A stretch of DNA of 63,319 nt, the filler included, from Conidiobolus incongruus B7586 (Eukaryota), in assembly GCA_000697335.1 (NCBI GenBank). It is 12 parts of 12 records of this genome, joined end to end, with 100 filler letters (N's around TTAATTAATTAA, not from the genome) between each part and the next. Parts side by side here need not be neighbours in the genome. Positions count along the whole stretch, not along the records: positions 42,877 to 56,154 come from JNEM01007050.1; 11 more parts are not named here. One strand, given 5' to 3'. The position numbers were made by a program, and so were the translations under genes. Below, in pieces: positions 15,252-61,949 of the stretch. The notes under the pieces were generated by a model, which searched no databases, was not told the DNA's origin, and saw only the letters and a program-made list of their open reading frames with translations. Every line of letters begins with the position of its first letter. Position 1 is the first letter of the stretch.

Positions 15252-16794
15252 CTATTGCATCATACCGGGCATACCTCCAGCTTCTTGTTGTTCACGAACA
15301 AACATTTCGAAATATTGGTAGATGATAGTAACGGCTAATAAGATACCAGTTCCTGAACCAATAGCACCCATTAAATCAGCAACAACTGATAATAAACCAA
15401 TAAGTAAACCACCAACAGTGGCAGCTTGAGGAATAACACGCTTCAAAACCTTATACATGGAGGTATCACGGTGACCAGCGATGACAGTTTGTTGATCTTT
15501 GAGTTGCTTGGCAACATCACGAGGAGAAGATCCAGAAACTTCAATCCAAGTACGAGAGAATAAGGCACAAGCACCCAACATGAAAGTAACATAGATGGAA
15601 AAATGGATGGGATCTTTGAAAACATCCATGATGCTGGAAGGAGGACTGAGATAATAGGCCAAACCAGAGATGGCAAATAATTGGTGAGTACCTTCTTTAA
15701 TTTCCCATACACCAAACATACGAACAAAGAAGTTATTGGGGAAACGAGTGTAAAGCATTTGAGAAACCATATACAAGTTAGAAGTGAGAGCAGATTGAAG
15801 CATAATGGGCATGTTGGAAGTGTAGAACAATTTGATAGGAAAGCTACCACGAGATCCACGCATACGAGCAGATTTGACAGGAATTTCAATACGAAAGCCT
15901 TGTAAGTAGATAACAAGAGCGAAAATGAAAGCGGTAGCTAACAAGTTAGTAATATTGGGTAAGTTGGAACGGAAGAAAGCTTCATAAAGAGCGGAGAACT
16001 TGTTTCTGCGAGTGAATAAAAGGTGGAATAAAGCAATGACAGCTCCTTCAAATTGAGCGCCTTTGCCAATGTTATAAGTGTTGGGACTGAAAGCTTTCCA
16101 GATAATGTTTTCACAAATGTTGGTGGCAATGAACAAGTTGATACCAGAACCCAAACCGTATCCCTTTTGGAGAAGTTCATCAAGTAAAATGACAATAATA
16201 CCAGCCATAGCCAATTGGAAGATCAAAAGTAAGCAGACACCCAGTCCTAAGTTAGAGGCAGGTCCAAAAGTACCAGAAACAACGGAAACAATAGCTTGAC
16301 CAAGAGTGAGAATAATGGCGAATACTGTAACTGGGTTAAGAAACTGGAAGAAAAAAAATTAAGATAAAATACTTACATTTTTGAGCAGCACCAAAAAGAG
16401 CACGATCTTCACGAACGCTGTAGTCGACCTCGAGCAAGTTAGCTCCAGAAAGCATTTGTAAAATCATACCAGAGGTAATAATAGGAGTAATACCAAGTTC
16501 CATTAGAGTACCACGATTGGAGGCAAGAATAACTCTCATCCAATAAAGAGGATCTGAGGAATCAGAAGACATAATACCGTATAAGGGGATTTGAGAACAT
16601 ACTAAGAAAATGAATAAAGTGATTGCTGTCCACAAGATCTTTTGGTTGAAAGGGATCTATTTAAGATTAATATTAGATTAGCAAAAGATGGGCTGAGAAT
16701 AATGAAGGCTAATGTGTACCTTGCGATCTGGAGAAGCAACTTCAGGAATGAAGGCCACAAAAGGGCGCATTAAATGTAGCGCTCTGAAAGTCAT
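15252..16794 (-). CDS. SEC61: Protein translocon subunit Sec61 alpha (3 exons)
   Basis: [25 protein letters not shown] / [28 protein letters not shown]...[19 protein letters not shown] / ...[18 protein letters not shown]...[12 protein letters not shown]...[18 protein letters not shown]. Confidence 0.98.
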
Positions 16795-33716: not shown

Positions 33717-35178
33717 CACTAATCTATAAAAATAGGTTATAAAATCAAAAACACTTATATTTTTACTAATAACTTAATTAATATTTAATAAAATAAACTT
33801 AAATTAAATAATTGACATCTATTATAATTATTAATAATATATATTATTATATAATAATATTTGAGTATTAATTAGTTAAAATATAAAGAATTAAATTTTA
33901 CCTAAGATAAGTTATAAATTTATAGGTTTTTAGTGATAAAAAAAATTAAAACTTAATATATTTATCTTAAGCTTTTCTAATTTCTTTAAGTTTGTAAGGT
34001 ATAAAATCAACTAACTTTTTATATTAAAAAAGGTTAATCTTATTTTATATTTCTTAAACATATTTTAAAGTTGATTTAAATTTTTTATTAGAGGGAAAGC
34101 TTTAATAGCTTTTTTTAACTAATCCTAAAGGTATTTAATTATGTTAAGGTTAAGAAATTGAAAAAGCTATTTTATAACTATTATCTTATTATTTTTAAGT
34201 TATTTGGTAATAAAAGCTATAGTATAATAAAAGGTATTATCTTACTAGAAAATAATATTAGATTTGTTTAACTTATACTATTTAATAATTTTTTTTAATT
34301 TATTATTTAAAATATGTTAATATATTTTAACATTAATTCCTTTATTATCTTTATAAAAATATTTTACATTTAAAGATAATATACAACTTTATATAATAAT
34401 TAACTTACTATTATATTTTTTGGTAAAATTAATATGATAGTTATAAAGTAATTTTATATCTTTTTTAAAGTATCTATTTTTTTTATTAAATTTACTAAAG
34501 TATATTTTTGTTTTATTAAACTAAATAACTTTACTTTAATTAGTTTTAGTTTAATATTAATAGTAACATTTAAACTCCTACCTAACTTTATAGTGGGATT
34601 TTTTTAGTTATAGGTGTTTTTTCTTAAAGTATAAGTGGTATCTATGTTAATATAAAGTATATATAATAATATTAGTGTTAACTAATATTTTTATATAGTT
34701 TTATAATTTTTATTATATTTCTACAATAGTATTATATTTGTTTATATTAACTAACCTATAAATATACTTCTTATTATATTTATTTATAATTTTAATATAC
34801 TTATGTTTAAATTTAAATATATTTTTATTTTTATTCTTCATAACTTTAACTATAGTAAACTAACTAACACTAGTAATTTTAATAATATTATAAGTTAATT
34901 TATTTGTTTTATAAAGTTAATTAATATACAAGTAGATTTTTTTAAAGAGGGATTTAGGTATAATAATACTAATAAAAAAATTTAGTATATTTATAAAATA
35001 TTATATAAAATAGTAACAAAGAGAGAAAAAAGATATAGTTATATATTGTTAATTTAATTTTTTTTTATTAAAAACCTATATATTTATAATTTACTTTAGT
35101 TAAATATTAAGGGTTAATATTTTTACTAATAGTTTACTAAATATATTTAAATATATTTATTTATAATTAAATAATATA
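33717..35178 (-). mobile_element. Tc1-like (DD34E) transposon copy 1, hypermutated; other end in gap
   Basis: Starts CACTAATCTATAAAAATAGGTTATAAAAT after (TA)n. Minus strand reads IIF**DNTFYYT...K*LFQFLNLNIIKYL*D, i.e. IIFQQDNAPCHT...WPxQSPDLNxIEHLWD after reversing C>T/G>A; D-to-E spacing 34. Confidence 0.82.
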
Positions 35179-39490: not shown

Positions 39491-39498
39491 ATTTAATA

Positions 39499-39988
39499 TT
39501 AGTGCAGAAATTAAGTAATGGCACAATTTTAAAATTAAAATTAAACAAATAAATTAATAAATAATATATAAAAATTAATGAATAATATAAAATTAATAGC
39601 CTCTTTTATTATTAATAACTTTTTTCTATACCTTTAGTAAGCTTCTAATACCTAAAAAATAGTTCTTTTTATTAAGGACTGAAATTTAATGTTTCACAAA
39701 CCAATTTAATTTGTTTGCAGGAATTTTTTTTCCTGCAAGCTGTTTTTTTAATTGTTTAAAACAATTATAATCACATAGATTATAATCAAGTGAATATACT
39801 GGATGTGGTAACTCCCTCTAATTTTTTTTATATAAAAAATCTTTTACAGCTTTAGCTTTATGTATTTTATAATTATCATACAAAATAATAGGTGTCTTTA
39901 ATTTATATTGAGAACACCATTTAGAAATTGTTTTATTTAAAAAAGTAATATATAACTTACTATTAATTGATTTTCCTTGAGGTATTAA
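39499..39988 (-). mobile_element. Mariner 3' part with TIR (rest in gap)
   Basis: TA plus TTAGTGCAGAAATTAAGTAATGGCACAATTTT; minus strand PIILYDNYKIH...*RELPHPVYSLDYNLCDY, homologous to 20063-20371. Confidence 0.85.
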
Positions 39989-40561: not shown

Positions 40562-43248
40562 TAATATTAAAAGTAAATCAATTGGTTGGGTATTATAATT
40601 CCTTAGTTTACCAAATTCATTTATTTAATCTTCTTAAATATTAGTCGAGTTAAGTATCTTTAATAATTTAATATAACTCATAATTTATTTTTCTATTTTA
40701 AATTATATTAAATTTATACTTATTATATTTAATATGAAAACCCTTTATTTCATTAAGCTTAATGGTATTAATAATATATATAAATCCTTTATATTTTAAT
40801 TTAAAAATATATAATTTAAAATTATTGATTTATTGGTAATTCAATTACCAAAAAAACAAGTAATATTATTCTAATATTATTGAAATATTAAAACAAAGGA
40901 TACTCAGCCAATTTTGGATAAAATATTTGGAGAGAAATAAATATTTTCTAGATTAACTTGATAAATTTTTTAAATTTACAACGTTTTATTAGTGTATGAA
41001 ATCAAATATTATTATAAATATTGTTTCTTTAAATTGAGCATAATAAACATTATTCTATATACTATCTTAATTTAATCTATTTAATCAAATTTATTTTTTA
41101 TAGTAAAACCTTTAATATTGATTATTAATATTATTATTATGTACTTTAATATTGATATCTATTACATCAAAGCATCAGTGTAGATTTTACGCTATGTTAT
41201 GAATCACTATCAATCAGTAGAATATAACAACAGTTCAAATATTAAGATTAAAGTTAAATATTATACCAATGGTATATTGATTTTGTAATACTACATATTC
41301 AGAAAGCAATGAAAAAGCAAATTGCAATTAATTATTTCTAGAAAACTCATTTAATAACCAATTTATACAATAAAAGTTTACAACAAATTTTATTCAATAG
41401 ATAATTTAGAAATTGGCAAAACAAAAATCAATGTAAAGTAATATTTATGCTTCGGATTTACAGCTATATAAATCTCATACTTAGTTTATCTATTTGAAAC
41501 AAGGATATTTTTATATCTCTTGGATAATGTTATTATTTCCAATTCCTTGATTCACACTTTCACAATATTATATTAAAGAAATTTGTTATAAACTTATATC
41601 TAATTTCAATATTTTAAATTTGTGAATTATAAATTTAGTTTTTTTAAAGCTTCGGACATTTCATTTATTAATATTATGGTTGAGTTATATCAAATTATCA
41701 CTAGATTTAATATTATATTTTATATTTTTAATAAATGATCATTAAATCAATTTAATAATGATAAGGAAAATTATTTTATTGACTTAATATAAACACTCAA
41801 TGCTAAAAGTTTTTTCTAATTTTATAACCAAACTGTTGGATAATATTGTTGAATAATTGTAATATTAATTAAAGATAACAACTTTTATTTAAATTTACAT
41901 TTAGTCGAGTCATGTAATTATTAAAAATCAAATAGTCAAAGTCATTGATTTCCTTAATCATAATATAATATCAATATTTCAATCTTATTAAAGCATATTA
42001 ATATTTTGAATTATTAGAAATATTGTGGCAATACTCTGTTATCCGCACCATAGATTAGTGTATTTGTGATGTCTAAATCAGTATCCTTACACAAAATCTA
42101 ATGGTTACCTCAATTCTCTACCAATTAATGTTGCGTTTTATAATAAGATGGTTGATTGTAACTTATTTATTAATAATTTTATTTAAACAGTTCACTCAGT
42201 GAATTATATCCTTTAATTATGGACTTAGCCGCTAAAATGAGAGATAACATGAACTTAACTATCGAATCAAGACGGACGGGTATTTTCAAATTACAGCAAT
42301 ATATTTGATAATTATTGAATCAACTTGTCTATTAATCAAATTTGATGTTCAACAAAGAACATTGTAAAAATTTTCTATTCTTGACTTGAGTATTATAGAA
42401 AGATATAATGTAAATTACAGGGAAAAATGATTATAGGTTTGAAATATATGATAATCATTTTAATTATTACAATTATTATTTTATTTTTTTAATTATGATA
42501 CTAATCAAATTCTTATTTATATATTATTATTATTTATTATATATTCTAGTTTATAGTAATTTAATAATAACTATTAATAGGTATCTAATTAAATCAAACC
42601 TATAAATCTTTGAATATTTATTATTATTTTATCATTTTTAAACCAAATATATTAGTAATATTTTAATTTTAAAACTATTAATAAAATTTAAAATTATTTA
42701 AATTAGAAAAATATTACGATAGTATTTGAAATATGAGAAATTATTTAATTCCTGATTTTTTAAATATAATATTAGTNNNNNNNNNNNNNNNNNNNNNNNN
42801 NNNNNNNNNNNNNNNNNNNNTTAATTAATTAANNNNNNNNNNNNNNNNNNNNNNNNNNNNNNNNNNNNNNNNNNNNTTATATATTAATAATCTTTGATTT
42901 TAATCTTTTAATAATATAAAAGATATATCAATTTATAATCAATATTTATTGATATTTTTAGTATTATAATTTTTAGTTATAATATATTAACTATATTATA
43001 TAGTCAATAAAATAAATTTTCTAATATTTATATTCTCTAAGAATAAATATTTAATTTAATCTTATTATTTATAATTTGATATTCAAATTAGAAATTTTTA
43101 TTTAGCTAAAATTTTATTTTTATTAGATATTTAATAAGATATAATATTTACTAAGTTAAATTTCAAATTAATTATATAATTAGATTTATAATTATATATT
43201 TAAAGCTTTGATATTTTATATCAACTTATGGTTTTTTTAGTAAAGTTT

Positions 43249-43647
43249 TGTAAGTGTAGTGGTAGTTAAACTAATATAGTATAGAGGAAAACTTAATATA
43301 AAAGTAGTGTGGCACAAAATGTAGTAATATAATGTGGCTGTAGTGTGCAAATGTAAACAAAGTTTAATTAAGCTTCAAACTAGGATGAGTCACTAATATA
43401 TTAAGATTTATATTAGGTAGTACTAATATCCTATAATATTAATAGAATATAGTCTCAATTTTAGAAATAGTATAAAAGTAAAAAATAGTAAGAATTAAAA
43501 GGAAAAAGAAGAACCTAATTTATTAGATAATTTAATACTATTTATACAATTAATTTAACTATATAAGTATAAATTAATCATATAATTTATAGTTAATTGG
43601 ATTATATAAAAGTATATATAAGAATTTAAAGAACTAGTCTCTTAACA
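43249..43647 (-). repeat. 3' LTR (399 bp) of the Gypsy element
   Basis: TG...CA termini; aligns end to end with 48568-48964 and, inverted, with 61550-61949. Confidence 0.95.
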
Positions 43648-46600
43648 CTCCCCTAATAGGTTTTTTAAAAGAGACACACTCCCTAATTTTTTACAAATAG
43701 GTATAATAGGTTAAAGTATTCTTAATATTTTCTAGAGGTTCTTATATAGCTTCTTTAATTAAATAACCCATCTATTTTACATAAAAATAAAATTTATTCC
43801 TAATAGATTTAGACTTAATTATGTAATTAACATAGTATTCTTCTTCTCCATCTTAATTAATAATTAAATCTAGTTTTGGGGTTTTTAATCAATTAGGAAA
43901 AGTGTTAAAATCTTCAAAGTATGGTTTAATTTTAGATATGTGAAAGGTAAAGTTGATCCTCAAAGTTAAAAATAATTCCAAGGTAATATTTTTAAAATTT
44001 AAATCAATAGATTAAATTTTATAAGGATTATAATATAATGGTAAGTATTTGGGATTTAAGCTAAATTTAAATAGGGTAAGTTTAAGGGCAGATTGTTCTA
44101 AGTATACAAACATATTAGTTTTATATTTAAGAGGGTTTCTAGATAACTTTAAGTATTGTTGTTCTATAATCCTTTAATTTTCTTCTAAGTTAAATTTAAC
44201 AAGGGAATTAATATGTTTGATATTAGATTAAAATTCAACAATATTTAAAAGTAAGTTAATTTAAAGTTTTAGAGTAATTATTAAGTTAAGATGTTTATTA
44301 TAATTAATGAAATAAAAGCTAAAACCTGTTGATTTATTAATAAAGGTGTTGAATAAATATTAGAGTTAGTAGATATAAACATCCTAATTTAATTGATTAG
44401 TGTTAATATAAGCTCTAATCATTTGCTTTAAGGTTTTAATAGTTTTTTCAGCAAGTTTATTAATTTAGTGATAATTAGTAGTAGATATAGCTAGGTTAAT
44501 TTTAAAGGAAAAGGATAGTGACTTTTAGAATTAAAAGTTGAATTATACATCTCTATCAAATATAATAGTTTGTGGAATTTTATAGTGGGTAAAGATATTA
44601 AAGAATAATAATTGTGTAATATCTTTAGCTGTAGAAGTTTTGAAATAAAAAATAAAATAAGTATATTTAGAAAATGAATCAATTATAATTAGTAAATTAT
44701 TATAACTATTTGTTGATTTAAGGATTTCTATAAAATCAAGTTAGATTTATTGTTAAGTTTCATTAAAAACTTATAAGGGAATAAGTTTACTATATTTTAG
44801 TTGAGTATTATATTTAGTTCTTTAGTGTATATTATAGGTATTAGTGTATTTCTAAACTAATTTAATTAGGGAAAGCTAATAGTATTTTATTTTAATTTTC
44901 TTAGTAGTTTTTAACTAGTTTTAATATCTTTTAATAGGTAAATTATAACATTCATTAAATATTGTTTATTAAATCTTAAGAATGTTAAGAATATATAGAC
45001 AATTATTATAGTATAGTAAGTTATTGATAATTTTAAATTTTTTAACATATTTTAATTAGTTTTCTAATAGTTTAAAGAGTTTTTCTTTAACTAAAATAAA
45101 GAAATTATTATTTAACAGTGTTTTTTAAAGTAGTTTAATAAATTTTTTATTTCCTTCATTAATAATTATTAAGTTAATATTTGCTAGATTTTTACAATTA
45201 GAATAATAGGGTAAGTATGTAAAATTTCTTAATAAAGTATCTACAATATAGTTTTATTAACCTAAAAGATATTAAATAAAGAAAAGGTAAGCTTAGATAG
45301 TTTTAATCTATTTAACTTATTTTCTTAATAAATACTTTTGAGTATTTAAGTAGATGAGTGATTTATAATCTATAAGTGTTAAGAAAAAGTTGCAAGATAA
45401 GAAATGTAAGTGATTTTTGATTATTTCTACTAAAGCAAGAAGTTTTTATTTATAGACTAGGTATTTTAATTCAGCTGGTTTTATTTTTCTTAACTAGAAT
45501 GTTATTAGTTTTAAAGTAACATTTATAAAGTTAAATTCAACTTATTCTCCTTTATTTATTATTTTATCTTATAGTTATAAGGTAAAATATAAATTAAATT
45601 CAAACTAGGTTAATTATCTATTAATTGTAAAAAAATTAAAGTTAATAAAAATAATAGTAGGTAGTTTTAGATTAAAGATAAATAAAGCAAAAGCATTAGT
45701 AACATAGAAAATCAAAGTATTTATGTAGAAAGTGTGTAGTGGGGTTTATTTAAACAGAGAGTTTTTCTTTAAGAAATTAATAAAAAGAGTAACAAGTTTA
45801 ATAAAAGAATCAATAAAATCTTTAAAGTAATTTAATAATTTAAGTATAAATATAAGTTAATCTTTGTTTATAGGTATAGTAAAAGCTTTAATACTATTGA
45901 GTTTAGTTAGATTAATACTAATTCCTTAAAAAGAAACAATATAACTATAGAAAAAGATAGAAGAGGTACTAAAGATACATTTTAATAGTTTTAAAGGTAA
46001 TTTATATTCTTGAATAATTTGTAAAATTTAATTAATATGTTAGATATATTCTTCTTTAGTTTTTGAATAGATTAAGATATTATTAAAGTAGGTGATAATA
46101 AAGTTATTAAAAACAAGGTTAAAAAGGGAATTAATGAATTAAATAAAAGTTGTAAAGGTATTACACAATTTAAAGTTTATAACAGTAAATTTATAGTAGC
46201 TTAAAAGAGTATTGAAAATAATTAAAGGGATAGAATTTTTTTCAACTTTAATGTTGTAATACCTATTCTTAACATCTAGTTTAGTAAATATAATTGATCT
46301 AAGTAGTTTATCCTTAACATCATGTAGGTTTAATAATAAAGTTTTATCCTTGATAGTTTTAGAGTTTAAAACACAATTATCAATATATAATCTTTAACCA
46401 CTATTAGTTTTTTATATAAAGAAGATTAGAGATTTTTATAGTGAGGAAAAAAGTTTAATATACCTATTTTCAAGTAGTTTTTGGATTTCTTCTTTTAAAG
46501 TTTAATATTATTCAAGAAATAAATAGTAAGTAAGTTTTAAGTATAGTTATATATTAGGGATTAGTTTAATTTTGTGTTTAATATTATATTTAGGTGGTAA

Positions 46601-48567
46601 TTTATTTACAAGTTTAAAAACATTAGCAAATTAACTTATTATATTGTATAAGAAGTGGTTATTAGATATAACTTCATTGAAATCAACAGATAAAGTGTTA
46701 ATAGATAAGTAATAAACAAATATATATCTTTATAAATTATTTAAGTTTTTGATTAGCTTTTTACATTGATTTTTACTTATAATGATAAAATTATTTACTA
46801 CAATTATAGAGTTAGTGTTAGGTAAAGTATTTAATAGTTTTATAGTAGGGTAATGTAGATTTTTTAAGATTAATTCTATTAATTTCTTTTAGAATATGAA
46901 AAAAATAGATTTGTAACCTTTTAAGGTAATATTCATAGATATAAAACTATGATATTTAAATTAATTTTAACCTAGTATAAAATTATAACTAATGTTACCA
47001 ACTAGGAATTTAATATATTAGGAGTAGTTAGGGGGTAATGATAGGTATTTAAATATAGTACCAGATGCTTGTTTTATTAAGTTATTAGCATATTTAATTA
47101 TTAAGTTGCTTTTTTAAATAGGTAAAGATAGTTTTAAAACAATAAAAAAAGAGATAATATAACTAAAACAACTAGAGTTAATTAAAACACTAACAGGTAT
47201 ATCTATAAAATAATTAATTAACACAAACAATAAAGTGATAGTTAAAGGTAAAAAATTACAAGGTAAATTAATTACTAGAATGTTTTTAGTTTCTAATGGT
47301 TTAATTAGTTAGATTTCTCTAGTATATATAGTTTAATTTGTAGAATCATTAGTTTATTAGAACTTTTGTGGATTAAATTAGAATCTGCTAACTAATTGTA
47401 AAAGGAGTGATTTTAAGGTTATATTAATATTATTCAAGTTTGATTTATGGTTGGTAAGTTAAGATTATTGAAAATTAAACAGATGTTGCTTCTTTAAAGG
47501 GTATTTGTTAGCTTTATAGTTAACTTAAGTTCTTCAACAGTAATAACAACCTTTATTTGTTTTTAAGTAGGCTTTAACTTTTTTATTAAAGGTTTTCTTA
47601 TAAAGCTTTAAAGTAGAAACATTTATCATTTGAAATTTAGGTGGGTTAAAGTAAAGTTGAAAAGATTAATTTTTAAGGTTGGAAAATTTAATTATAAAGT
47701 AAAAAATATTATTAATTATAATTACTATATTACAAATGTTAAAAAAAAACATATTATTAAAGTGTTCTTTATTAACTAACTAAAACTTCACTTAAAAGTT
47801 AAGGTATTGTAATAGTTTGTAGATTTATTTTTCTTTAGTGATATTTAATATGTTTAAACATATCTCATTAAATTTCTCAATCAATTATCTTGTAGAAGTT
47901 TTTTATTTAAGCTAGGAAAACTTTTCTCTTGTTAATTAAACTTAATCTTTTAAGTAATACCTCTCTTTAAAAACTTTTTCTAATTGTTTAAAAGTTTATA
48001 TCTTTGTAATAAGTTATCCTCTTGAAGATTCTTTAGGATTAAACTTGTAATAAATTAACTACCAAATATAAACAAATTTTTCTAAAAAAAAGTAGCTAAT
48101 TTAAAGATATTCTTTAAATCTTCATCAAGAATCAAATTAAAATAATTCTTTATGTTTTTAAGGTAGTTTTCAAGTTTGTAAAGGTTTTTAAAATTATCAT
48201 AAGTAGTTAATTTGTTTTTAAAGATATTAAAGAAGTAGTTTAATATATTAACTATAATAAAATAGCTGGTTTGTTAGATTTAAGCTCTTTAAAACATGTT
48301 TTTTTCAATTAAAAGTTGTTTAATATATGTTTCTTAAAGGGTAATAAACTTTTAAAAACTAAAGTTTTAGATTTACTTAGTAATTAAGCTATTATTATTA
48401 TTATTAAAATAATATAAGGGTATCTCTTTTTTTAGTGGTATTATAGTATATAGTATTAAATTAAAATAAAATAAATTATAGATAAGATTTAAAATAGTAA
48501 TAATTAAATTTAATACAAATAGTTATTAATTTCTAGTAGGTTTTTAATGGTTTTATTACTGTTACTA

Positions 48568-48964
48568 TATAAGTATAGTGGTAGTTAAACTAATATAGTA
48601 TAGAGGAAAACTTAATATAAAAGTAGTGTGGTGTAAAATGTAATAATATAATATAGCTATAGTATGCAAATGTAAAGAAAGTTTAATTAAGCTTCAAACT
48701 AGGATAAGTTATTAATATATTAAGATTTATATTAGGTAGTGTTAATATCCTATAATATTAATAGAATATAGTCTCAATTTTAGAAATAGTGTAAAAGTAA
48801 AAAATAGTAAGAATTGAGAAGAAAAAAAAACCTAGTTTATTAAATAATTTAATACTATTTATACAATTAATTTAATTATATAAGTATAAATTAATTATAT
48901 AATTTATAGTTAATTGGATTATATGAAAGTGTATATAAGAATTTAAAGAACTAGTCTCTTAACA
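48568..48964 (-). repeat. 5' LTR of the Gypsy element
   Basis: Aligns with 43249-43647; the + strand terminal TG is mutated to TA. Confidence 0.93.
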
Positions 48965-50203
48965 AGTTCTATATTACTATTAAAAATAAATAATAAAAAA
49001 CAATATTATTATTAATTAATCTCAAAGAAAATATTTATTTTAATAGTAATATATATTTTAATACTAATAATTATCATAATTAAATTATTAACCATTATAA
49101 ACTAATTGAATCCTAAATTAAATTAAAATATTAATGGTTTTTATAATAATATTAAACTATATTAAAGTTGAAATATTTAAAAATATTTAATGAGAAAATA
49201 TGAAAAACAATATTTTGCCACAATTCCAGATTATTTAATCCTTATATCTCTTAATACAGATGTCCAACCATTAAAATATGTGAGAAGCAAATTATTTAAT
49301 ATAAATATAATTTTTATTAATCATAATTCTAAATTCACTAAATTGAAACTGCAAATTGGTTTTCTATCGCTTGACATGAATTATTTTGATGAAATTAATA
49401 TATTATAATTAATGAGAGTTATTAATTTTTTAAATTATAAAGTTTAATAATAAACTAAGTATATTATACTCTATTCAATTTAATAAAATATATTGGTAAA
49501 TTTTTGAGATAAATGTTGGATTCCAAAATTAAGGGTTGATCTTGATTTGATAGTTAAGGAAATATTTGATAGATTATAACATTCATTGAATCAACTATTT
49601 AATTTACTATCAACAACGTTTTTATACATCACAACAATAAGGTTAATTAATGGAACAATCATAAATCTAGTTCTAAATATTACCTAATATTTTAACTCTA
49701 TAATACACTCAATGATTACTTATTAAAATTATATAAATTAACAATATAATATGATAAATATTATATTGAGATCTTTAATTTGATTTTGCTAGTAAATTCA
49801 AATTTAAATAAATTACCAATATAGCTTTTTAAAAAAAATATTAATTTAAATAATATAATCTATTAAAAATATTAATTAAATTTTTATATAAATTAAAAAA
49901 AATTTTTTGAATAATCGGTAAAAGGTGAGAAAATTTTAAAAAATTTTTCTCCACTAAAATTTAATTTCCCCACCTGTTGAATTTAATCCACTTAATAAAA
50001 TTGTTATTTGTTTCAATTTTGACTTCTTTACAATGCATGTGGAGTACAACAATCAGGAATTAATAATCAATAGTGTATTAAGTGATGATAAATCAAGTAT
50101 TAATCAAGAAAATTTTCAATTGAGTAATTTTTGTTAAAAAAATAAGAGTATAATATTGAATTTATATTTCATTTATTTTGATTTTTATAATTTAAATAAA
50201 TTT

Positions 50204-51205
50204 TCAATGATTTTCAATTTTGATATATTCACAATCTTCTTCAGGTAATTTTACATTAAAATACTTTAAAAAGCACTCTTTTCTGTGTTCAAAATCTTTA
50301 GTGACTATAGTTTCGCTACCTTCTGCTGTATATGTTTTGATAGTTCCGTTGAGATACATGATGTACCCTTTAGGAGTATTGATTGCCATAAAATTGAGTT
50401 TGTAGAATACATTTTGTGGATCTGATAATATTTGATTGTTCATGATTTCAACATCAGAAATATAAACGGGTTTGGGTTGGAAGTAATGTAAAGGACACCA
50501 TTCATTTCTGGCATTGAGCTTTTTACCAGGGATGGGAGAGTGTCTTACTTCAAGGACATACGGATCGTATTTGCTGGATTGTGTTTGTTCAATAACTTCG
50601 GGATAAGGTCTTTGAACAATGCGATGTTGGGTCAAGTTTGAAGATTCTTGTACCAAATCCAATTGGAGTTTAATGGGAGTGGCAGTGGAACCGAGATGTA
50701 AGCCAAGATCGAGTATGTATTCCTCACCCTCAAGATTAATTAAGATAAAAGCGTGGTTAAGAGGAGCCACATGGATAGTTCTATTCTCTTGCCATAATCC
50801 ATAATCAACTCCACGTCCGCCCAATAAATAGCATTCGAATCCCAGACATCTGAGAATCCAATAAGCTAAAACATTATTTTCAAAGCAGCAGCCATCTCTC
50901 TCTTCTTCAATGACCTTAGTGAACATATCCTGATGATTGATACTCACGCCCTGAGTGGTGAGCTTGTCGAAGGGATGTGTGGGAGTATTACCCTTGGGTT
51001 GAGTGAGCTTATGATAGTAATGGAAACTCAAATTACCGAAAGGGATTGAGCGAGTATGGCATTCAGCGATGCTTTTCAAGGTATCATAAGTGGGCTTTGG
51101 TAATTCATTAACATTAGCACCAGTTGACTCAAAAAAGTTGATTCTTTTCAAATATTTAATCAACTGATCGTAAGAATAGATCTCGCAAGGGATTGTATTA
51201 ACCAT
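50204..51205 (-). CDS. NAT: Arylamine N-acetyltransferase, intronless, about 333 aa
   Basis: YLKRI, HTRSIPFGNL (IPFENL motif), ERDGCCFENN (catalytic Cys), PLNHAFILI (His), YILDLG (Asp), LKYFNVKL C-terminus. ATG at 51205; the ORF track starts one codon earlier at GTG. Confidence 0.92.
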   Translation of the reverse strand: MVNTIPCEIYSYDQLIKYLKRINFFESTGANVNELPKPTYDTLKSIAECHTRSIPFGNLSFHYYHKLTQPKGNTPTHPFDKLTTQGVSINHQDMFTKVIEEERDGCCFENNVLAYWILRCLGFECYLLGGRGVDYGLWQENRTIHVAPLNHAFILINLEGEEYILDLGLHLGSTATPIKLQLDLVQESSNLTQHRIVQRPYPEVIEQTQSSKYDPYVLEVRHSPIPGKKLNARNEWCPLHYFQPKPVYISDVEIMNNQILSDPQNVFYKLNFMAINTPKGYIMYLNGTIKTYTAEGSETIVTKDFEHRKECFLKYFNVKLPEEDCEYIKIENH

Positions 51206-54200
51206 CACGATTACAAATAAAAGTTTATTCTTTGACCATGACTCGAATCCATCACTTTTATATTACTCAAAATCCCAATTTAATATAATCGGTTTCATCA
51301 TCCATAGCACCCAATTTGCAAAAGATAATTATACAAACACTTGTGATTGGTCAGTTGGCTAAATCTTTTAATATAATTTTTGTGTAACATCCGAACCTGA
51401 GAAATTTAGATAAAAAAAGGGGGTTTTCATATTACTAAAATTGTTAAGTGTCAAATAATAATATTATTTAATAAAATTGAATAAATTTATAATATTCTTT
51501 TTTTTTTTGAAAAATTTCTAAAATTTAATTACTATCCGAATCTTATGATTTAAATATTTATTATAATTATTATTATATTTCAGCTTATATTAATTTTAAT
51601 TTATAAATAATTTTGTAATATATAATATTAATAGAAATCTATTTTATTTTAATTTTTTATTAATAATATATTTATTTATACATATTAACAATGATTAGAT
51701 TAAATAATTTAGATATTTTAATTGGTTTACAATTTGCCTATACCTTTAATCAAAATTTAAGTGAATTTTGAAAACTAAATTGAATATTTCGCTATATATA
51801 TCTAAATCAATTTTTTATCCAATTATTATTTACTCATTACCACCTCATTTTGCATTATATTAACATATCCATATATGATAAGAAATCAATTTTATTTTGT
51901 TAAATTAGGATTATTTTATTGGATAACTCTTAATTCTATAAAGTAGCTTTAGCTTTTTATTTTCAAGTTCTCGGACCAAATACTTTAAAATAAATTAATT
52001 TATCAAAATGATTTTTCCTATAAGGTATTAAATATTTTTTTAAATAATTATAATTTAGAAATAATAAAAATTAAAACCTAATTAACATAGTTAATTGATT
52101 AAATATGTATTACATTTTTATTTAATATTAAACATTATTATATTATATATTATTATTATTATTCGGATTAATATCTATTTTAAGTAATTAAAATTATTGA
52201 ATATTCAAATTTTTATAATATTATTGTAGTTATGAATATTCGTGATTTCCGATGCTTAATAGTAATGTATAATGCGAAAAGGAATATTATCATTGTGTGA
52301 TTTATTTTCGTTTCAATCAAATATAAGTATAATATTAATATGATGTTGAACTATTTATCAATAAGTAGCAACTTTTGTGTATACTTTTAAATGAATTGTA
52401 ATACTTAAAGTTTAAGAAATTTCACTATGTTTCTTTTTTTGAAGTGAATTTAATATTATCATTGTTTTTAAAACTTGCTTAAAATATTATATTATAGTAT
52501 AATTATCATACAGATTCAATTAACTATGGTATTAGCTAAGTAAATTTAAAAATTTTTTTATAAGATTATTGGTTATTTCTTTAATTTATTACATTTTATA
52601 ATAATTAAAATATATTTTGATCAATTAAGTTTTTAGTTGATTATATATTTTATAAATAAATTATAAAGGTATCAAATTATTAAATAATTATAAAAATGAC
52701 AATATTATAACCATTATTAATATCATTATGTTAATATATTTTCTATTTTATTCATCAATATTAATAATAAAAGATAAATATTCAATATTGTTATATATAT
52801 GGTTCAAGATTTTAATTTATTTTCAATAAATAAATAAATAAAATATTAATTAATTAGTTCTGATAATCCATGTTTAATCAATATAAAAATTTAAAAATTT
52901 AATTTTTCTTTATATTTACCAATAAATATTAATATTTGAGATATATATATGAGTAAAATAAATTCTCATGATATTGTTAAATTTAAATATTTCACTATAT
53001 ATCCTTTATTATTGTTTTTCCAATATAATTCAATTTATTCTTCTGCTATTTCAAAAAATAATATAATTACTAATATTTGATTTTGAAATTAAAAATATTT
53101 GATATAATTGAAGAAGTAAGATTTAATGAAACTTTATTGATAAAGCTGTTAATATAAATAATCAGCATTTTTTACAATATTTTCAATTGTAAAATTATAA
53201 ATACTTGTTAGACATGAATTTATACTAATTAAACATATTATTAGCATTAACCTTAATTAATGAGTAATTAAAATTTAGGAAATAATCAACTCAAAATAAT
53301 AATAATAATAATAATAATAATATATACTAAATCAAATTTAATTAATGAAATTTCGGAGGTAATTGAGTGATTTTAAGCATTTAATATTCAAAATTAAAAA
53401 TATTTTTTCAATATAATACAAGATATCAATTGCCATTGGAGACATTTAATATCATTTTAAATATAAATAATAAAATATTCGAAGCATTAATTCAGTATTA
53501 TTGTTTATATCAATTGATAGTGAAGAATTTGGTGTTAGTTTTTAATTTGCTTAAAATAGCAAGTGAAAATTATATTTCATCTATTAAATTTTAATGAAAT
53601 AAAGAAAATATTATCTCTAATTAAAATTATTCAATTAATTTTTGATAGCACTATTTGCGTTATATTGATAAAAATCAATAAATTTTAAATGCGAATAATC
53701 AAATAATAAATGTTTCTAAATTAAAGAGATATGTTATTGTAGAATCTAGGAATCACATTTGCCTTATAGAATTCGCAAATTATGGTATGTTTCACCTTAT
53801 TAATCAATAAGTTGGTGAAGTTATCATAAAACGTTATTATTGAAATTATGTTGATTAAATTAATATTTGAAACTATTATTTGATATAAATGGTAATTTTA
53901 CAACTTTTAAAATTATTTATCTCATAAATTTTAAATTTATCAATTTTAATCAAAGGTGAATTTGAAAAATTTATGCATAAGGATATACTTATATGTAATA
54001 ACTCATTGGGTACATGTTTTGAATCAATTTGGTAAATATTTGAAAATTCTTATATTAATCGGATTTTTATTTTCAAACTTCTTAAAGAAAATTTTATTAA
54101 CAGATTCCATGATAATTTTAAAAGAGTATTCGATTTAAAATTAAAATTAATATGTTTTATTAGTCATCTAGAAACTAATCACTTCTTTCTATTAATAGTT

Positions 54201-55016
54201 CAATTATAATGATATTTAAATAGTTTATCAAATATTTTATTTTCATAAATTATTATGTAAATGAATAACTAAAAGTTTGAATTAGTATCAATAATTGGCT
54301 GTTCATCCTTTTATTGTTGAATTGAAACTTGATTAAAATTCTACATATATTCTGTTGATATCAGTATAATTCAATTATAGAATAGATGAAGCAATATTTG
54401 ATATGATGTATAAATTGATTTCAATTAAAATTTTGTTTATTAATTTTGACACATTCAATTATAATAAAGTATATAAATCCTCAAATTTTGAATAAATATA
54501 TGTCATGTAATTTATTATTATATCATATTTTACTCAACAAACTGTTTTTTCAGGTACAATATGCGTGGATCCGCAATCTAGTGGAAACTTTTTTCAATTC
54601 TAATTTATTTGAATAATCAAATTTATTAACAAATAATAATTCAAATTGGGAAATTAAAAATCTTTTTCAACTATATCATAAAAGCAATTATCCAAATTCT
54701 TCAAATATTATATATATATATGAATAAAATCATGATTTTCTTAAAAAATTTTTGGTTAATAATATATATATATATAATAAAATATTTTAGTATTGAAATC
54801 ATTTTAAAAAAATCTTATTAGTTTTCATTTATACAAATCAAATTTAACTTTTAATTACATAAATTATAGTATAGTAATAAGTATCTAGGATTTTCAAAAT
54901 TCACGCTTATGTTACTATCCAAACTTATAAAAAAAGTATTATAAATATTATTATAGCAATAAAAAGCTTGAAATTTATGAACGATTTATTATTATATTCC
55001 TTTTTATAGTATTACA

Positions 55017-55342: not shown

Positions 55343-55691
55343 TTATATATATATATATATATATTTGACTAAATCTATAAATTTATCATAAAAATTATAT
55401 ATAAAAAACTTGGTAATATTTTAAAATTTTTAAAATATTTTTATAAAATTCATAATTAAATATTAATTTTAGGATAATAGTATTTTAATAATTTAGTTTA
55501 TAAAAATAAAATTAAATTGATTCAAATTTAATTATGAAATGAATCTTAATGTTATATAATTCATTAACAATCATATTTAAAAATTACTAATTCAATTTGA
55601 TCAAAATTTGAAATATAAAAATTATATTAAGACGAATTATTAAAAGAATTATTAGGTATTAAAACCAATTTTTAAATAAATTTAAATACAT

Positions 55692-56154
55692 TTAAAGTTG
55701 GCCACTGCTGAGCACATTACCACCATCTGCTAGGACCTTGACAGATTCATCTTGTACAACTTTGCCATCCATACCAGTGATTCGAATGTTAGCTGGATTA
55801 GTTGCTCCATTAATAATCCAAATGTTATTGTTGTTTCTAGAAGCTGGTTTCCATTGTCCATTGACATTGATTTCAATACTCTTAATAGCTTGAGCTGAGT
55901 TTAAGATTTGTAAACCAGCCCACCATTCGTTACTTCCAGCTTGCCAGCGATATTGGAGATTTCCATTAATGTTAGGACATCTGACTTGCTTCCAAGTGAT
56001 AGGGACATTTCCTGATGCAGGATCACCAATTAATTGGAAAGCATTGGCATTGATATTAAGATCACTTGCTCCACATCCACTACAAATATCAGCTACATTG
56101 ACAATGACTGATTTGTTGTTATCAGTGTTAGTGACTTCGAGACAAGCTCCACAC
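55692..56154 (-). CDS. Expansin-like protein (EXLX: DPBB plus CBM63), 3' part; 5' end in gap
   Basis: CGACLEV...VNVADICSGC...NAFQLIGDPASGNVPITWKQVRCP...YRWQAGSNEWWAGLQILN...NGQWK...IRITGMDGKVVQD...SGQL-TAA(55692-55694); colinear with BsEXLX1 motifs. Confidence 0.9.
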
Positions 56155-58002: not shown

Positions 58003-59551
58003 AAGTAAGTTATAAAATCAAAATACTTATATTTTTACTAATAATTTAATTAATATTTAATGAAATAAACTGAAATTAAATAATTAAAATCTATTATATT
58101 TATTAATAATATATATCATTAAATGATGATATTTAGCTATTAATTAGTTAAAATATAAACCTTTAAATTTTACCTAATGTAAGTTATAAATTTGTAGGTT
58201 TTTGGTAATAAGAAAATTAAAACCTAGTGTATCTATCTTTAACTTTTCTAACTTCTTTAAATTTATAAGGTATAGAATCAACTAACTTTTTATATTAAGA
58301 AAAGTTAATCTTATTTTATACTTCTTAAATATATTCCTAAAGCTGATTTAAATATTTTGCTAAAGGGAAAGCTTTAATAGCTTTTTTTAATTAATCCTAA
58401 AATATTTAATTAGGCTAAGATTAAAAGATTAAAGAAACTACTTTATAACTATTAACTTATTATTTTTAAGTTATTTGGTAGTAAAAGTTATAATATAGTA
58501 AAAGGCATTATCTTATTAAAAAATAATATTAGATTTGTTTAACTTATATTATTTAATGGTTTTTTTTCAATTTATTATTTAAAATATTTTAATATATCTT
58601 AATATTAATTCCCCCACTAACTTTATAAAGATATCTTATATCTAAAGATAACATATATCCTTAAATAATAATTAACTTACTATTATACTTTTGGGTAAAA
58701 TTAATATAATAATTATAAAATAATTCTACATCTTCTCTAAAGTATTTAACTTTTTTATTAAATCTATTAAGATATATTTTATTTCATTAGATTAAATAAC
58801 TTTACTCTAATTAGTTTTAATTTAATATTAATAGCAATATTTAAACTTTTACCTAGCTTTATAATAAGATTTCTTTAGTTAAAGATGTTTTTTCTTAAGT
58901 TGTAAATGGTATCTATGCTAACATAAAACATATATAATAATATTAGTATTAACTAATATTCTTGTATAGTTTTATAATTCCTGTTATATTTTTATAATAA
59001 TACTATATTTGTTTATATTAACCAACCTATAAATATACTTTTTATTATATTTATTTATAATCTTAACATACTTAAGTTTAAATATATTTTTATTATTATT
59101 CTTAATAACTTTAACTATAGTAAACTAGCTAACATTAGTAATTCTAATAATATTACAAGTTGATTTATCTTTTTTATAAAGTTGATTAATATATAAGTAA
59201 ATTTTTTTAAAAGGGATTTAGGTATAATAATACTAATAAAAAAAATTTAGTATATCTATAAAATATTATATAAAATAATAACTAAGAGAGAAAAAAGATA
59301 TAGCTATATATTGTTAAATATATCCCTTTATCTCAAAAACCTATAAATTTATAACTCACCTTAGTTAAATATAAATGGTTAATATTTTTGCTAATAGTTT
59401 ATTAAATATATTTAAATATATTTATTTATTATGAAATAATATATCTTAATTATATATTATAGTTTTAAATAATCTAATATATATAATTATTTTTGTTATT
59501 AATTAAAATATATATATTTTTAATTTTATAACTTACTTTTATAGGTTAGTA
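58003..59551 (-). mobile_element. Tc1-like (DD34E) transposon copy 2, hypermutated
   Basis: Colinear with 33717-35178 over about 1.45 kb; right TIR ATTTTATAACTTACTTTTATAGGTTAGTA then TA at 59552-59553; keeps GAT AAT GCC (DNA). Confidence 0.85.
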
Positions 59552-59765
59552 TATTATAATATATTAAAATATTTTAAATAATAATTAAAAAATCCATTGA
59601 ATAATATAAGTTAAATAAATTTATTATTATTTTCTAGTAAGATAATATCTCTTGTTATATTATAGNNNNNNNNNNNNNNNNNNNNNNNNNNNNNNNNNNN
59701 NNNNNNNNNTTAATTAATTAANNNNNNNNNNNNNNNNNNNNNNNNNNNNNNNNNNNNNNNNNNNN

Positions 59766-60095
59766 GACATTTCCTGATGCAGGATCACCAATTAATTGGA
59801 AAGCATTGGCATTGATATTAAGATCACTTGCTCCACATCCACTACAAATATCAGCTACATTGACAATGACTGATTTGTTGTTATCAGTGTTAGTGACTTC
59901 GAGACAAGCTCCACACATAGCAGAGTTTGCGAAAGTAGATGGACCAACACCAGCATAATACTGATAAGTACCAGCTGGGTATGAGCAAGAGCCATAACCA
60001 TCAATCCCATTTTCAAAATAACCACGGCCAGTTCCAGTAGCTTGACTGAAGATATGAGAAGAAAGGAAAGAAGCAATTAAAATTAAGTTTTGCAT
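59766..60095 (-). CDS. Expansin-like protein, 5' part; 3' end in gap
   Basis: Signal peptide MQNLILIASFLSSHIFS, GSCSY, SAMCGACLEV, VNVADIC; identical to 62904-63233. Confidence 0.9.
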
Positions 60096-61549
60096 ATTGG
60101 TATAAATTGAATTAAATTAAATTATTATATTGATGATGAATATTTACCAATCTTCTATTTATATACTCCCAATTGAGCATTTTAATTTTACTCGAATTAT
60201 TTCATTTACTCATAATTAGACTGTGCAATATTAATCTTGTAATTATAATATTTAGATATAAATATACGTCAGATTTTATTATTATAATCATTTGTAATTA
60301 TACAACTAATATGAAATAAATATCTATTAATAGGATTCAATGTTACATATTGGATTAAATTATAACATTTATAACATATTTTGATCCAATTCCCAATTTT
60401 GATTAATCAAATTGACTATTAATAGCATATTCAAACTAAATTTAGCATTATCAAAAAATTAAAATGAATTTTCTCCAATTATACATTTTAAACATTATGA
60501 TTAGAATTAATAAAATATTGTGGTTGATATTACTGGTAAATCTAACTTCTTTCGATTACCAGTATCTTGTTTTTAAAACATTACAATAAATTTTACAGTA
60601 TAATATGCAAATCATCTCAAAAATAATTTTATTTGGTTACTTCTGATTTTTCAATTCTTACTCTATTACGGAAAAATGTTTTAATCAAGTTATATTAGTT
60701 GACTAATAATAGATATGGCTGAACTCTTTCAGTTATATTAGTAATCACTCAACATATTGAGATTATTTAATTATATTTTTTTTGTATTAAAATCTAAAGC
60801 TGATATTAAAATTCCATCCTTTTTACCAACTTTATAATTAATTTTTTATTGTTATAGAATTTTTAATGGAACCTAAAATCATTATTACAATATAACACCA
60901 ATTAGGTTTAATAAAATTCTTTTATAAAATAAAGTACACGATGTTTTTATATTTTGATATATAGTTAATAATATAAAAAATCCCAAAAAGAGCAAATTTT
61001 ATATCTATAAATATGATTAAAAATAAAGTTTAAAATATCTGTCTGATAAGTATATAATATTATTGTTAATATAAAAACTTCAAAATTGGTCAATATTAGC
61101 TGAATTGTGATATTATTATTTAAAAGTAATTCTTATGATTTAATCATAAAATATTAGTCTTGCAATTAGTATAATAAAGATAATATTAATTTATATAGTA
61201 AAATATAGTTATCAAAATTAAATTTTATAGCTTCCCAATATATATCATTATTATATTTTTTCACTTTACTTTTTGAGATTTTAAAAATTTAAAATTAAAA
61301 AGTAACATTATAATTGAATAATATAAATTATTATTAGGAAATTAAAATAATATTCTTTTATTTTTTATAATTAAAACAAAATTTAATAGATTCAATAATT
61401 AAGAAAAATATTATTTTAATTAATATATATAATTATTAAAAAATTAAGTAATCTTTATTGTTCAATAATTAAAATATAAATAGATAAAAGATTTTATAAT
61501 TTTAATTCAAATTGTATTATATGTAAAATAGTAATTATTACACATATTT

Positions 61550-61949
61550 TGTTAAGAGACTAGTTCTCTAAATTCTTATATACACTTTCATATAATCCAA
61601 TTAACTATAAATTATATGATTAATTTATACTTATGTAGTTAAATTAATTGTATAAATAGTATTAATTTATCTAATAAACTAGGTTCCTCTTTTTTTCCTC
61701 TCAATTCTTACTATTTTTACTTTTACACTATTTCTAAGATTGAGACTATATTCTGTCGATATTGTAGGATATTGGCACTACCTAATATAAATCTTAATAT
61801 ATCGGTGACTCACCCTAGTTCGAAGCTTAATTAAACTTTATTTACACTTGCACGCTACAGCCACGTTATATTACCACGTTCTGCGCCACACTACTTTTAT
61901 ATTAAGTCTTTCTCTGCACTATATTAGTTTAACTACCACTACGCTTACA
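61550..61949 (+). mobile_element. Solo LTR (400 bp) of the 43249-48964 Gypsy family
   Basis: TGTTAAGAG...CTTACA termini with perfect 5-bp TSD TATTT on both sides; aligns to both LTRs; keeps 8 CpGs. Confidence 0.95.

What the first reader, a model, noticed from the sequence alone, without database searches (positions are those of the whole stretch)
43249..48964. RIP-like, both-strand C>T hypermutation of a structurally intact chromovirus
Seen: LTRs, TSD, PPT and domain order are intact with few indels, yet I found no CpG in 5.7 kb and key codons are hit by transitions: protease DSG>NSS, RT YxDD>YFNN, both chromodomain Trp codons>TAG/TAA, many Gln>stop. Differences among the three LTR copies are almost all C<>T or G<>A, in CpG, CpA, CpT and CpC contexts, with several CpG>TpA double hits. 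Known: RIP (RID/DIM-2 dependent, CpA-biased in Neurospora) is established in Pezizomycotina, with RIP-like CpG/TCG signatures in some basidiomycetes. Inference: if this is an early-diverging fungus, it has a strong, broad-context repeat-mutagenic defence outside the lineages where RIP is established.
Basis: partly seen in the sequence, partly recalled or inferred. Interest (0 to 1): 0.85.

Follow-up and report, generated by a model that had tools for sequence, protein, structure and literature searches.

The report
RIP-grade transposon mutagenesis in Conidiobolus
In a Conidiobolus fungus, a lineage far from those known to have the RIP genome defence, a retrotransposon and a DNA transposon have been ruined almost only by C-to-T changes at CG and CA sites while equally AT-rich host DNA beside them is spared, likely through a transposon-targeted cytosine methyltransferase.

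Summary
A Ty3 chromovirus (43249-48964, minus strand) keeps gag to chromodomain in one frame but has 0 CpG (47 expected) and 69 stops in pol. Its two LTRs differ by 26 transitions and 1 transversion. Against a spared solo LTR, C loss is CpG 63-81%, CpA 41-48%, CpC 7-36%, CpT 15-17%, while A/T sites change 1%. Other copies in same-sample contigs show this copy lost at least 549 G/C against at most 27 transversions. GC-matched single-copy DNA keeps CpG and CpA, so general AT bias is out; a Tc1-like DNA transposon shows the same damage, so reverse-transcription editing is unlikely. The host is Conidiobolus-like (Sec61 97% to C. coronatus), not Pezizomycotina. The context is graded (CpG > CpA >> CpC/CpT), not flat. 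That it is true RIP is not shown: a linked, identical host-gene duplicate is untouched and no enzyme could be checked. Best reading: methyltransferase-coupled, transposon-targeted C-to-T mutagenesis (Dim2-like, RID-independent), 0.5; homology-sensing RIP, 0.27. A RIP-index hint in Zoophthora is published; a 2025 kingdom-wide screen called C. coronatus 'no RIP', but a rough copy of that screen misses this window too.

The parts
43244..43248 (.). left target-site duplication AGTTT (4 of 5 match to the right one)
43249..43647 (-). 3' LTR, 399 bp, 0 CpG
43648..43654 (-). polypurine tract (AGGGGAG on the element strand)
43718..43834 (-). chromodomain remnant; both conserved Trp positions are stops (TAG, TAA)
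   Evidence: Pfam Chromo E 0.0043, below curated cut-off; alignment to SUV39H1 chromodomain E 0.006
43880..44131 (-). Tf2-1-like SH3 region (weak)
   Evidence: Pfam E 0.051
44282..44803 (-). integrase core; the three acidic positions still read D, D, E
   Evidence: Pfam rve E 0.0027; motif assignment recalled
45299..45511 (-). RNase H remnant
   Evidence: Pfam RT_RNaseH E 7.8e-7
45941..46342 (-). reverse transcriptase remnant; catalytic motif reads YFNN
   Evidence: Pfam RVT_1 E 5.8e-9
47168..47188 (-). aspartic protease motif position, reads NSS
   Evidence: no Pfam hit for the protease, assignment by position and recalled motif
47798..48010 (-). gag remnant
   Evidence: Pfam Retrotrans_gag E 1.5e-4
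48568..48964 (-). 5' LTR, 397 bp, 0 CpG, terminal dinucleotide TA instead of CA
48965..48969 (.). right target-site duplication AGTTC
61550..61949 (+). solo LTR of the same family, perfect TATTT duplication, keeps 8 CpG; used as the spared reference copy
33730..35178 (-). Tc1/mariner-like DNA transposon copy with the same damage (0 CpG, CpA/TpG o/e 0.44)
   Evidence: Pfam HTH_Tnp_Tc3_2 E 0.012, weak
58003..59664 (-). second copy of the Tc1-like element (0 CpG, CpA/TpG o/e 0.48); 140 transitions to 35 transversions against the first copy
15252..16358 (-). Sec61-alpha exon: host marker, 97% to Conidiobolus coronatus (on another contig of the window)
55692..56154 (-). expansin-like gene, 3' part, on the element's own contig; best named fungal hits are Entomophthorales
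59766..60117 (-). expansin-like gene copy, 352 of 352 bases identical to the inverted copy at 62882-63233, unmutated: control against indiscriminate duplication sensing

Best explanation
This is a dead Ty3 chromovirus in a Conidiobolus-like fungus whose cytosines were converted to thymine in the chromosome, on both strands and mostly at CpG and CpA, likely by a transposon-targeted cytosine methyltransferase of the DNMT1/DIM-2 class acting as a mutator without RID. Shown: the element inserted whole; its two LTRs then diverged almost only by C:G>T:A; the damage stops at the element's borders; it hits other transposon classes; one solo LTR and a duplicated host gene were spared. Inferred: long transposon copies are packed into silent chromatin, the methyltransferase modifies CpG and CpA (less CpC, CpT), and the modified bases are fixed as T far faster than the background clock, over repeated rounds, which would explain CpG>TpA double hits (the second hit is then a CpA hit) and the run of stops.
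For: Post-insertion LTR differences 26 transitions:1 transversion in 397 columns; 21 of the 26 lie outside CpG by the solo LTR's context. Solo to left/right LTR: 31 of 34 and 41 of 44 differences are C>T or G>A; loss CG 10/16 and 13/16, CA 12/29 and 14/29, CC 1/14 and 5/14, CT 8/52 and 9/52; A/T sites 3 of 285 in each; CpR against CpY P<1e-4 for each LTR. Contigs of the holder sample laid on 43648-48964: 959 transition places and 27 transversion places in X4, 928 and 27 in X1, three indel rows (X1 and X4 are one sample and may be the window's source; the tool says some differences were not counted). Fair per-lineage figure: at least 549 lost G/C against at most 27 transversions, 20:1, 35% of former G/C sites. 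At pol columns conserved in at least 9 of 10 intact Ty3 relatives, 25 of 38 changes are reachable by C>T or G>A alone (13 and 12), 0 by the reverse. GC-matched non-repeat DNA (57 windows, 18.9% GC): CpG o/e 0.61, CpA/TpG 1.16, composite index -0.55; element (19.2% GC): 0, 0.66, +0.76. All 300-bp windows with index >0.4 and no CpG merge into 8 stretches, each on a repeat or repeat-only contig. Tc1-like copies carry the same signature. A 50-fold CpG-only model with an AT-biased clock gave at most 7 CpA losses and 2 double hits in 180 runs, against 12-14 and 2-5 seen. Precedent: Dim2-dependent mitotic C>T in repeats of Zymoseptoria (PMC8016269, passages); RID/Masc1 found only in Dikarya apart from a bacterial-like chytrid copy (PMC5751038, passages); DIM-2 and DNMT1 exist in early-diverging fungi (PMC7862722, PMC11258239, passages).
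Against: No methyltransferase gene and no 5mC could be examined for this organism (no genome held). Zymoseptoria Dim2 mutates CpA and spares CpG, whereas here CpG is hit hardest, so the match is partial. Sparing of the solo LTR is also what true RIP does in Podospora (PMC10787394, passages). 5mC is described as scarce in Zoopagomycota (PMC11258239, passage). The context rates rest on three 400-bp LTR copies, with the solo LTR as stand-in for the starting state. The neutral control is compositional; no orthologous single-copy DNA from a relative was obtained.
Confidence: 0.5

Rival explanations
1. True RIP, or an independently evolved equivalent: duplicated DNA above a length threshold is recognised by homology around the sexual or resting-spore stage and mutated C>T in bursts by a RID-like enzyme.
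For: Transition excess of 20:1 or more, both strands, CpA strongly hit, sharp borders. Full-length copy hit and 400-bp solo LTR spared, as reported for RIP in Podospora; usual threshold about 400 bp (PMC10787394, passages). The 8 changes unique to the left LTR are all G>A on the plus strand, as one strand-biased round would give. RIP index 24.2% in Z. radicans and methyltransferases with RID-like domain layout in Entomophthoraceae, which the authors say cannot be taken as RID homologues (PMC11105155, passages).
Against: Two inverted copies of an expansin-like gene 2.8 kb apart are identical over 352 of 352 compared bases, with diverged upstream DNA and open frame; RIP can act on repeats as short as 150 bp. 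Caveat: an assembler may copy one collapsed sequence into both contig ends, or gene conversion may have homogenised them. CpG is hit harder than CpA (23/32 against 26/58, P 0.016). RID not reported outside Dikarya.
Confidence: 0.27
2. Passive decay: transposons are methylated in CpG and CpA, and 5mC deaminates spontaneously over a long time; no dedicated mutator.
For: CpG is lost first and completely; CpG-signature decay goes with Masc2/DNMT1-class enzymes in basidiomycetes (PMC4352252, passages). Older repeat pairs in the window have many transversions too (48:34 and 58:59).
Against: C>T per C is about 70-90 times the transversion rate per site (lower bound 17 for the LTR pair), with CpA at 41-48%; passive CpG decay in mammals is about 25-30 times the transversion rate (recalled, no call). 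Only three indel rows over 5.3 kb, so the copy is young by other clocks. CpG-only model fails; a model with methylated CpA was not simulated.
Confidence: 0.15
3. General AT mutation bias acting on unselected DNA.
For: The genome is very AT-rich (non-repeat, non-ORF DNA 21.7% GC).
Against: GC-matched single-copy DNA keeps CpG and CpA; A/T sites change 1% while C sites change 28-37%; older repeats show that the background makes many A<>T transversions.
Confidence: 0.02
4. Editing or error during reverse transcription (APOBEC-like or dNTP imbalance).
For: G>A outnumbers C>T in some LTR comparisons on the plus strand (19 to 7).
Against: The two LTRs, identical at insertion (passage), differ by 26 transitions; conserved pol columns need C>T 13 times and G>A 12 times on one strand; a Tc1-like DNA transposon is hit alike (its identity rests on a weak Pfam hit and recalled motifs).
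Confidence: 0.03
5. The element's contig comes from a contaminating Pezizomycotina fungus, so this is ordinary RIP.
For: The window is 12 contigs joined by an artificial linker; Sec61 and the element lie on different contigs. The acetyltransferase gene next to the element gave no hit at E<=1e-30.
Against: The expansin-like gene on the element's own contig has Neoconidiobolus (48%), Entomophthora (43%) and C. coronatus clusters (40%, 38%) among its 10 looked-up best hits and no named Pezizomycotina; flank composition and GC3 (0.35 against 0.36 for Sec61) match the host contigs.
Confidence: 0.03

Closest known systems
Dim2-dependent mitotic C>T mutation of repeats in Zymoseptoria tritici (PMC8016269; abstract and passages)
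   Same: C>T confined to transposons, more than 95% of changes are transitions there, CpA is a main target, no sexual cycle needed.
   Different: Zymoseptoria is Pezizomycotina and spares CpG; here CpG is hit hardest and the host is Entomophthorales; enzyme and timing untested here.
Repeat-induced point mutation (Neurospora crassa, Podospora anserina; PMC10787394 passages; PMC12543289 sections 8-9)
   Same: Both-strand C:G>T:A, very high transition excess, CpA loss with TpA gain, full-length LTR elements hit and solo LTR spared.
   Different: CpG exceeds CpA; a linked identical host-gene duplicate is unmutated; RID, homology sensing and premeiotic timing not shown; host outside Dikarya.
CpG-signature transposon decay in basidiomycetes and Tuber (PMC4352252, passages; Clutterbuck 2017, title seen in a reference list only)
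   Same: Complete CpG loss in transposons; Tuber shows CpG first, CpA second.
   Different: Rusts and Microbotryum show CpG only; here 21 of 26 post-insertion changes are outside CpG. Tuber has RID and Dim2. Clutterbuck's text on 'lower fungi' could not be read and may cover Conidiobolus.
RIP-index signal in Zoophthora radicans and other Entomophthoraceae (PMC11105155, passages)
   Same: Same order of fungi; proposes RIP-like activity outside Dikarya.
   Different: That work used a dinucleotide index on windows; in the passages read it gives no value for Conidiobolus s.s. and no copy-against-copy spectrum, LTR-pair test or spared-copy control.
Fungal chromoviruses (Ty3/Gypsy, Metaviridae)
   Same: LTRs, 5-bp duplication, purine tract, gag-PR-RT-RH-IN order and C-terminal chromodomain.
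   Different: Dead copy; nearest intact proteins found are only 20-23% identical; no clade assignment made.

Membership tests
Chromovirus (Ty3/Gypsy) | Two LTRs with short target-site duplication | tested here: met
   duplication 4 of 5
Chromovirus (Ty3/Gypsy) | RT-RNase H-integrase order | tested here: met
Chromovirus (Ty3/Gypsy) | Chromodomain at the integrase C-terminus | tested here: met
   Pfam E 0.0043, below curated cut-off because of damage; PDB chromodomains are the best 10 hits
Chromovirus (Ty3/Gypsy) | RT phylogeny inside the chromovirus clade | not tested
   no named close relatives obtained
RIP (Neurospora type) | Strong excess of C:G>T:A transitions in repeats, on both strands | tested here: met
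RIP (Neurospora type) | Single-copy DNA spared | tested here: met
   (composition only)
RIP (Neurospora type) | CpA is the leading context | tested here: not met
   CpG 23/32 against CpA 26/58; mixed CpG/CpA contexts are known in some RIP fungi
RIP (Neurospora type) | Any long or linked duplication is a target, whatever it encodes | tested here: inconclusive
   linked expansin duplicate identical over 352 bases, but assembly collapse or gene conversion not excluded; solo LTR spared fits the length rule
RIP (Neurospora type) | RID/Masc1 gene present and required | not testable with these tools
   no genome held; literature survey finds none outside Dikarya
RIP (Neurospora type) | Acts before meiosis in the sexual cycle | not testable with these tools
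   needs crosses or spore progeny
Dim2-type methylation-coupled mutagenesis | C>T restricted to transposons, including non-CpG sites | tested here: met
Dim2-type methylation-coupled mutagenesis | CpG spared, CpA mutated (Zymoseptoria spectrum) | tested here: not met
   all 8 CpG lost in both LTRs
Dim2-type methylation-coupled mutagenesis | DIM-2/DNMT1 gene and 5mC on transposons | not testable with these tools
   no genome or methylome; PMC11105155 says only that all fungi in its set have PF00145 genes
CpG-only methylation decay (Masc2/DNMT1 type) | Loss confined to CpG | tested here: not met
   CpA 41-48% lost; CpG-only simulation fails

The most novel reading that the evidence does not exclude
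Conidiobolus has a homology-sensing, RIP-equivalent genome defence that works without RID, either inherited from before the Dikarya split or evolved independently, and kingdom-wide screens have missed it because they are blind in AT-rich genomes.
Probability: 0.25. Interest if true: 0.85.

Novelty: new variant of a known kind. Interest (0 to 1): 0.6.

Why it matters
The most recent kingdom-wide survey concludes that RIP-like mutation is restricted to ascomycetes and lists C. coronatus as 'no_rip' (PMC12543289, abstract, section 9 and S14 row). A rough re-run of its k-mer rule on this window also returns zero qualifying k-mers, although the repeats here are plainly mutated, so the screen would likely miss such cases in AT-rich genomes. 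Copy-level evidence of RIP-grade, CpA-inclusive mutagenesis in Entomophthorales bears on how old repeat-directed mutation is and whether it needs RID or sex. Conidiobolus species have small genomes (C. coronatus 39.9 Mb) while sister lineages exceed 1 Gb, so the contrast is testable. It also warns that LTR ages and repeat content in these fungi are distorted.

Tried and rejected
No whole genome is held, so no family-wide alignment and no methyltransferase or deaminase search. Runs X5 and X7 of a related label laid nothing on the element: no evidence either way. No RNA holder listed. No close intact family member: best 10 proteins are 20-23% identical and the two looked up are unnamed; a viral-contig scan found none; the exhaustive protein search was busy for pol and was finally spent on the expansin gene. 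The acetyltransferase gave no hit at E<=1e-30 and only family-level Atlas hits; codon-usage correlations among six host genes were 0.25-0.68, too noisy to assign contigs. I first read '7 of 8 kept C sites are CpA''s 40 listed rows as survivors and dropped it: at four or five of them the remaining depth equals that at private transversions, so they are ordinary private changes. The raw 959:27 ratio overstates the bias, since other copies' private transversions fall under the 10% cut; 20:1 is used. Repeat contig 56255-57902 got no Pfam hit in six frames. Rfam: nothing in 42877-63319. Papers not held: Bewick 2019, Clutterbuck 2017, Gladyshev and Kleckner 2017. Supplements: PMC11105155 had no Pfam count table for DNA methylases in 3 files; PMC5751038 gave no RID row for Conidiobolus in the places shown; PMC12543289 S11 and S13 were too large to read and files 13-19 were not searched.


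Full report
Setting. The window is 12 contigs joined by an artificial linker; no whole genome is held. The element lies in contig 42877-56154. The Sec61-alpha exon at 15252-16358 is 346 of 357 residues identical to Conidiobolus coronatus KXN74440.1 and 77-78% to Massospora, Entomophthora and Neoconidiobolus. In a 29-row tree (28 rows picked by me from the 121 proteins to cover the phyla) it groups with C. coronatus at 100/100 inside Entomophthorales at 100/99, far from the three Pezizomycotina rows. Because Sec61 is on another contig, I tied the element's own contig separately: of the 10 best-ranked hits of its expansin-like gene that I looked up, four clusters name Neoconidiobolus, Entomophthora or C. 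coronatus, three name a hemichordate or an amoeba at 34-35%, three have no organism, and none names a Pezizomycotina species. The host is therefore a Conidiobolus-like fungus close to, but not the same as, C. coronatus.

The element. It is a Ty3 chromovirus on the minus strand: LTRs at 48568-48964 and 43249-43647, a 5-bp target-site duplication with one mismatch, a purine tract, and gag, RT, RNase H, integrase, SH3 and chromodomain remnants in a single frame. That frame has 105 stops in 1608 codons against 143 and 246 in the other two. Pol has no TGG, CAG or CGN codon among 1279.

Is it more than chance? The 5716 bases hold 0 CpG where 47.3 are expected from composition and 28.9 at the rate of GC-matched host DNA (P about 3e-13). 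Fifty-seven non-repeat 300-bp windows matched for GC (18.9%) have CpG o/e 0.61, CpA/TpG o/e 1.16 and composite RIP index -0.55, and 9 of 57 lack CpG; the element has 0, 0.66 and +0.76, and 19 of 19 windows lack CpG. The index turns negative in the first window wholly outside each end. Across the whole window, windows with index above 0.4 and no CpG merge into 8 stretches (11.7 kb), each on a repeat or a repeat-only contig.

Spectrum. The two LTRs differ by 26 transitions and 1 transversion in 397 columns, unlike an older repeat pair at 48:34 (P 1e-4). A solo LTR of the family (61550-61949, perfect TATTT duplication) keeps 8 CpG; 31 of 34 and 41 of 44 of its differences from the element's LTRs run C>T or G>A. 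By its contexts the losses are CG 10/16 and 13/16, CA 12/29 and 14/29, CC 1/14 and 5/14, CT 8/52 and 9/52, against 3 of 285 A/T sites. Of the 26 post-insertion differences, 12 are CA, 5 CG, 5 CT, 4 CC; 7 of 16 CpG fates are TpA. Contigs of the holder sample show a large family: 45,712 pieces laid in run X4, most 90-99% alike, with 959 transition places, 27 transversion places and three indel rows; X1 of the same sample gives 928 and 27 (not independent of the window, and some differences uncounted). Counting only this copy's lineage gives at least 549 lost G/C against at most 27 transversions, 35% of former G/C sites, about 70 times the transversion rate per site. A simulation with 50-fold CpG hypermutability and an AT-biased clock set above the observed transversion rate gave at most 7 CpA losses and 2 double hits in 180 runs, against 12-14 and 2-5.

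What is hit and what is spared. Two copies of a Tc1-like DNA transposon (33730-35178, 58003-59664; inverted ends, weak Pfam hit E 0.012 in one of the two, motifs recalled) have 0 CpG and CpA/TpG o/e 0.44-0.48, with 140 transitions to 35 transversions between them, so the process is not tied to reverse transcription. Spared are the solo LTR and an expansin-like gene present twice, inverted, 2.8 kb apart, identical over 352 of 352 bases with diverged upstream DNA. The first fits both RIP's length rule and chromatin targeting; the second speaks against sensing of any duplication, unless the assembler or gene conversion made the copies identical.

Mechanism. Shown: in-place, both-strand, repeat-restricted C>T, graded CpG > CpA >> CpC/CpT, far faster than other changes. 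Inferred: the enzyme, the timing and the targeting. I put a transposon-targeted DNMT1/DIM-2-class methyltransferase acting as mutator at 0.5, homology-sensing RIP at 0.27, passive 5mC decay at 0.15, and AT bias, retro-editing and contamination at 0.08 together. That some repeat-targeted C>T process acted in this Entomophthorales fungus is thus about 0.9.

What is known. PMC11105155 (passages; 3 supplements searched) reports RIP indices of 24.2% in Z. radicans and 2.4-5.7% in three relatives and says RIP may be active outside Dikarya, with major caveats. PMC12543289 (abstract, sections 8 and 9, S1 and S14 rows) finds RIP-like signatures only in ascomycetes and scores C. coronatus and 7 other Zoopagomycota 'no_rip'; this is a result against my reading, for a different species. 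My rough copy of its rule on this window (coding set from 12 long ORFs) gives 20-22 k-mers enriched in non-coding DNA and 0 enriched in both compartments, so it would likely miss this case. PMC8016269 (passages), PMC4352252 (passages), PMC10787394 (passages), PMC5751038 (passages), PMC7862722, PMC11258239, PMC13297926 and PMC12019607 (passages) supply the comparisons; PMC11451569 was read only for its citation of Clutterbuck 2017, whose text on 'lower fungi' I could not see and which may cover this genus. Nine full-text searches (pairing Conidiobolus, Entomophthora, Zoophthora or Zoopagomycota with RIP, DNMT and transposon terms) listed no copy-level description for Conidiobolus; most subscription journals are not covered. 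Four earlier notes of this scan describe CpG-then-CpA decay in other early-diverging fungi; they are unchecked leads and suggest the pattern is not unique to this genus.

Verdict. Real feature, new variant of a known kind: RIP-grade, CpA-inclusive transposon mutagenesis in Entomophthorales, mechanism open between a Dim2-like mutator and RIP proper. Interest 0.6; 0.85 if homology sensing without RID is shown.

Noticed in passing
window 55017-55342: A 326-bp island of 40% GC with 13 CpG (12.8 expected) in 18% GC DNA, bounded by TGT...ACA and flanked by TTACA/TTATA; possibly an unmutated solo LTR of another family; no Rfam hit.
   Followed up: partly
window 59766-60167 and 62840-63319, 55692-56154: Head-to-head expansin-like genes with identical coding sequence but diverged upstream DNA, with the solo LTR between them; gene conversion or assembly collapse. 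Nearest named relatives in Entomophthorales, also hemichordate and amoeba proteins.
   Followed up: partly
window 50204-51262 (-): Arylamine N-acetyltransferase gene 1.2 kb from the element, unmutated, with no close relative found at E<=1e-30.
   Followed up: partly
window 56255-57902: Repeat-only contig with the same signature (0 CpG, index +0.62) but no partner in the window and no Pfam hit; class unknown.
   Followed up: partly
window 19997-20471, 35397-35871, 39494-39967: Three copies of a 475-bp repeat; two differ mostly by transitions (55:10), the third also by many A<>T transversions, a rough picture of the background spectrum.
   Followed up: partly
window 48548-48567 (-): Bases just inside the 5' LTR read TAGTAACAG, like a tRNA-Met-type primer site with G>A changes (motif recalled, not tested).
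   Followed up: no
window 43648-48964: Summed contig depth over the LTR is about three to five times that of the internal region, hinting at many solo LTRs (not a copy number).
   Followed up: no
window 25535-27166 (-): Intronless-looking MFS transporter of the drug:H+ antiporter type on another contig.
   Followed up: no
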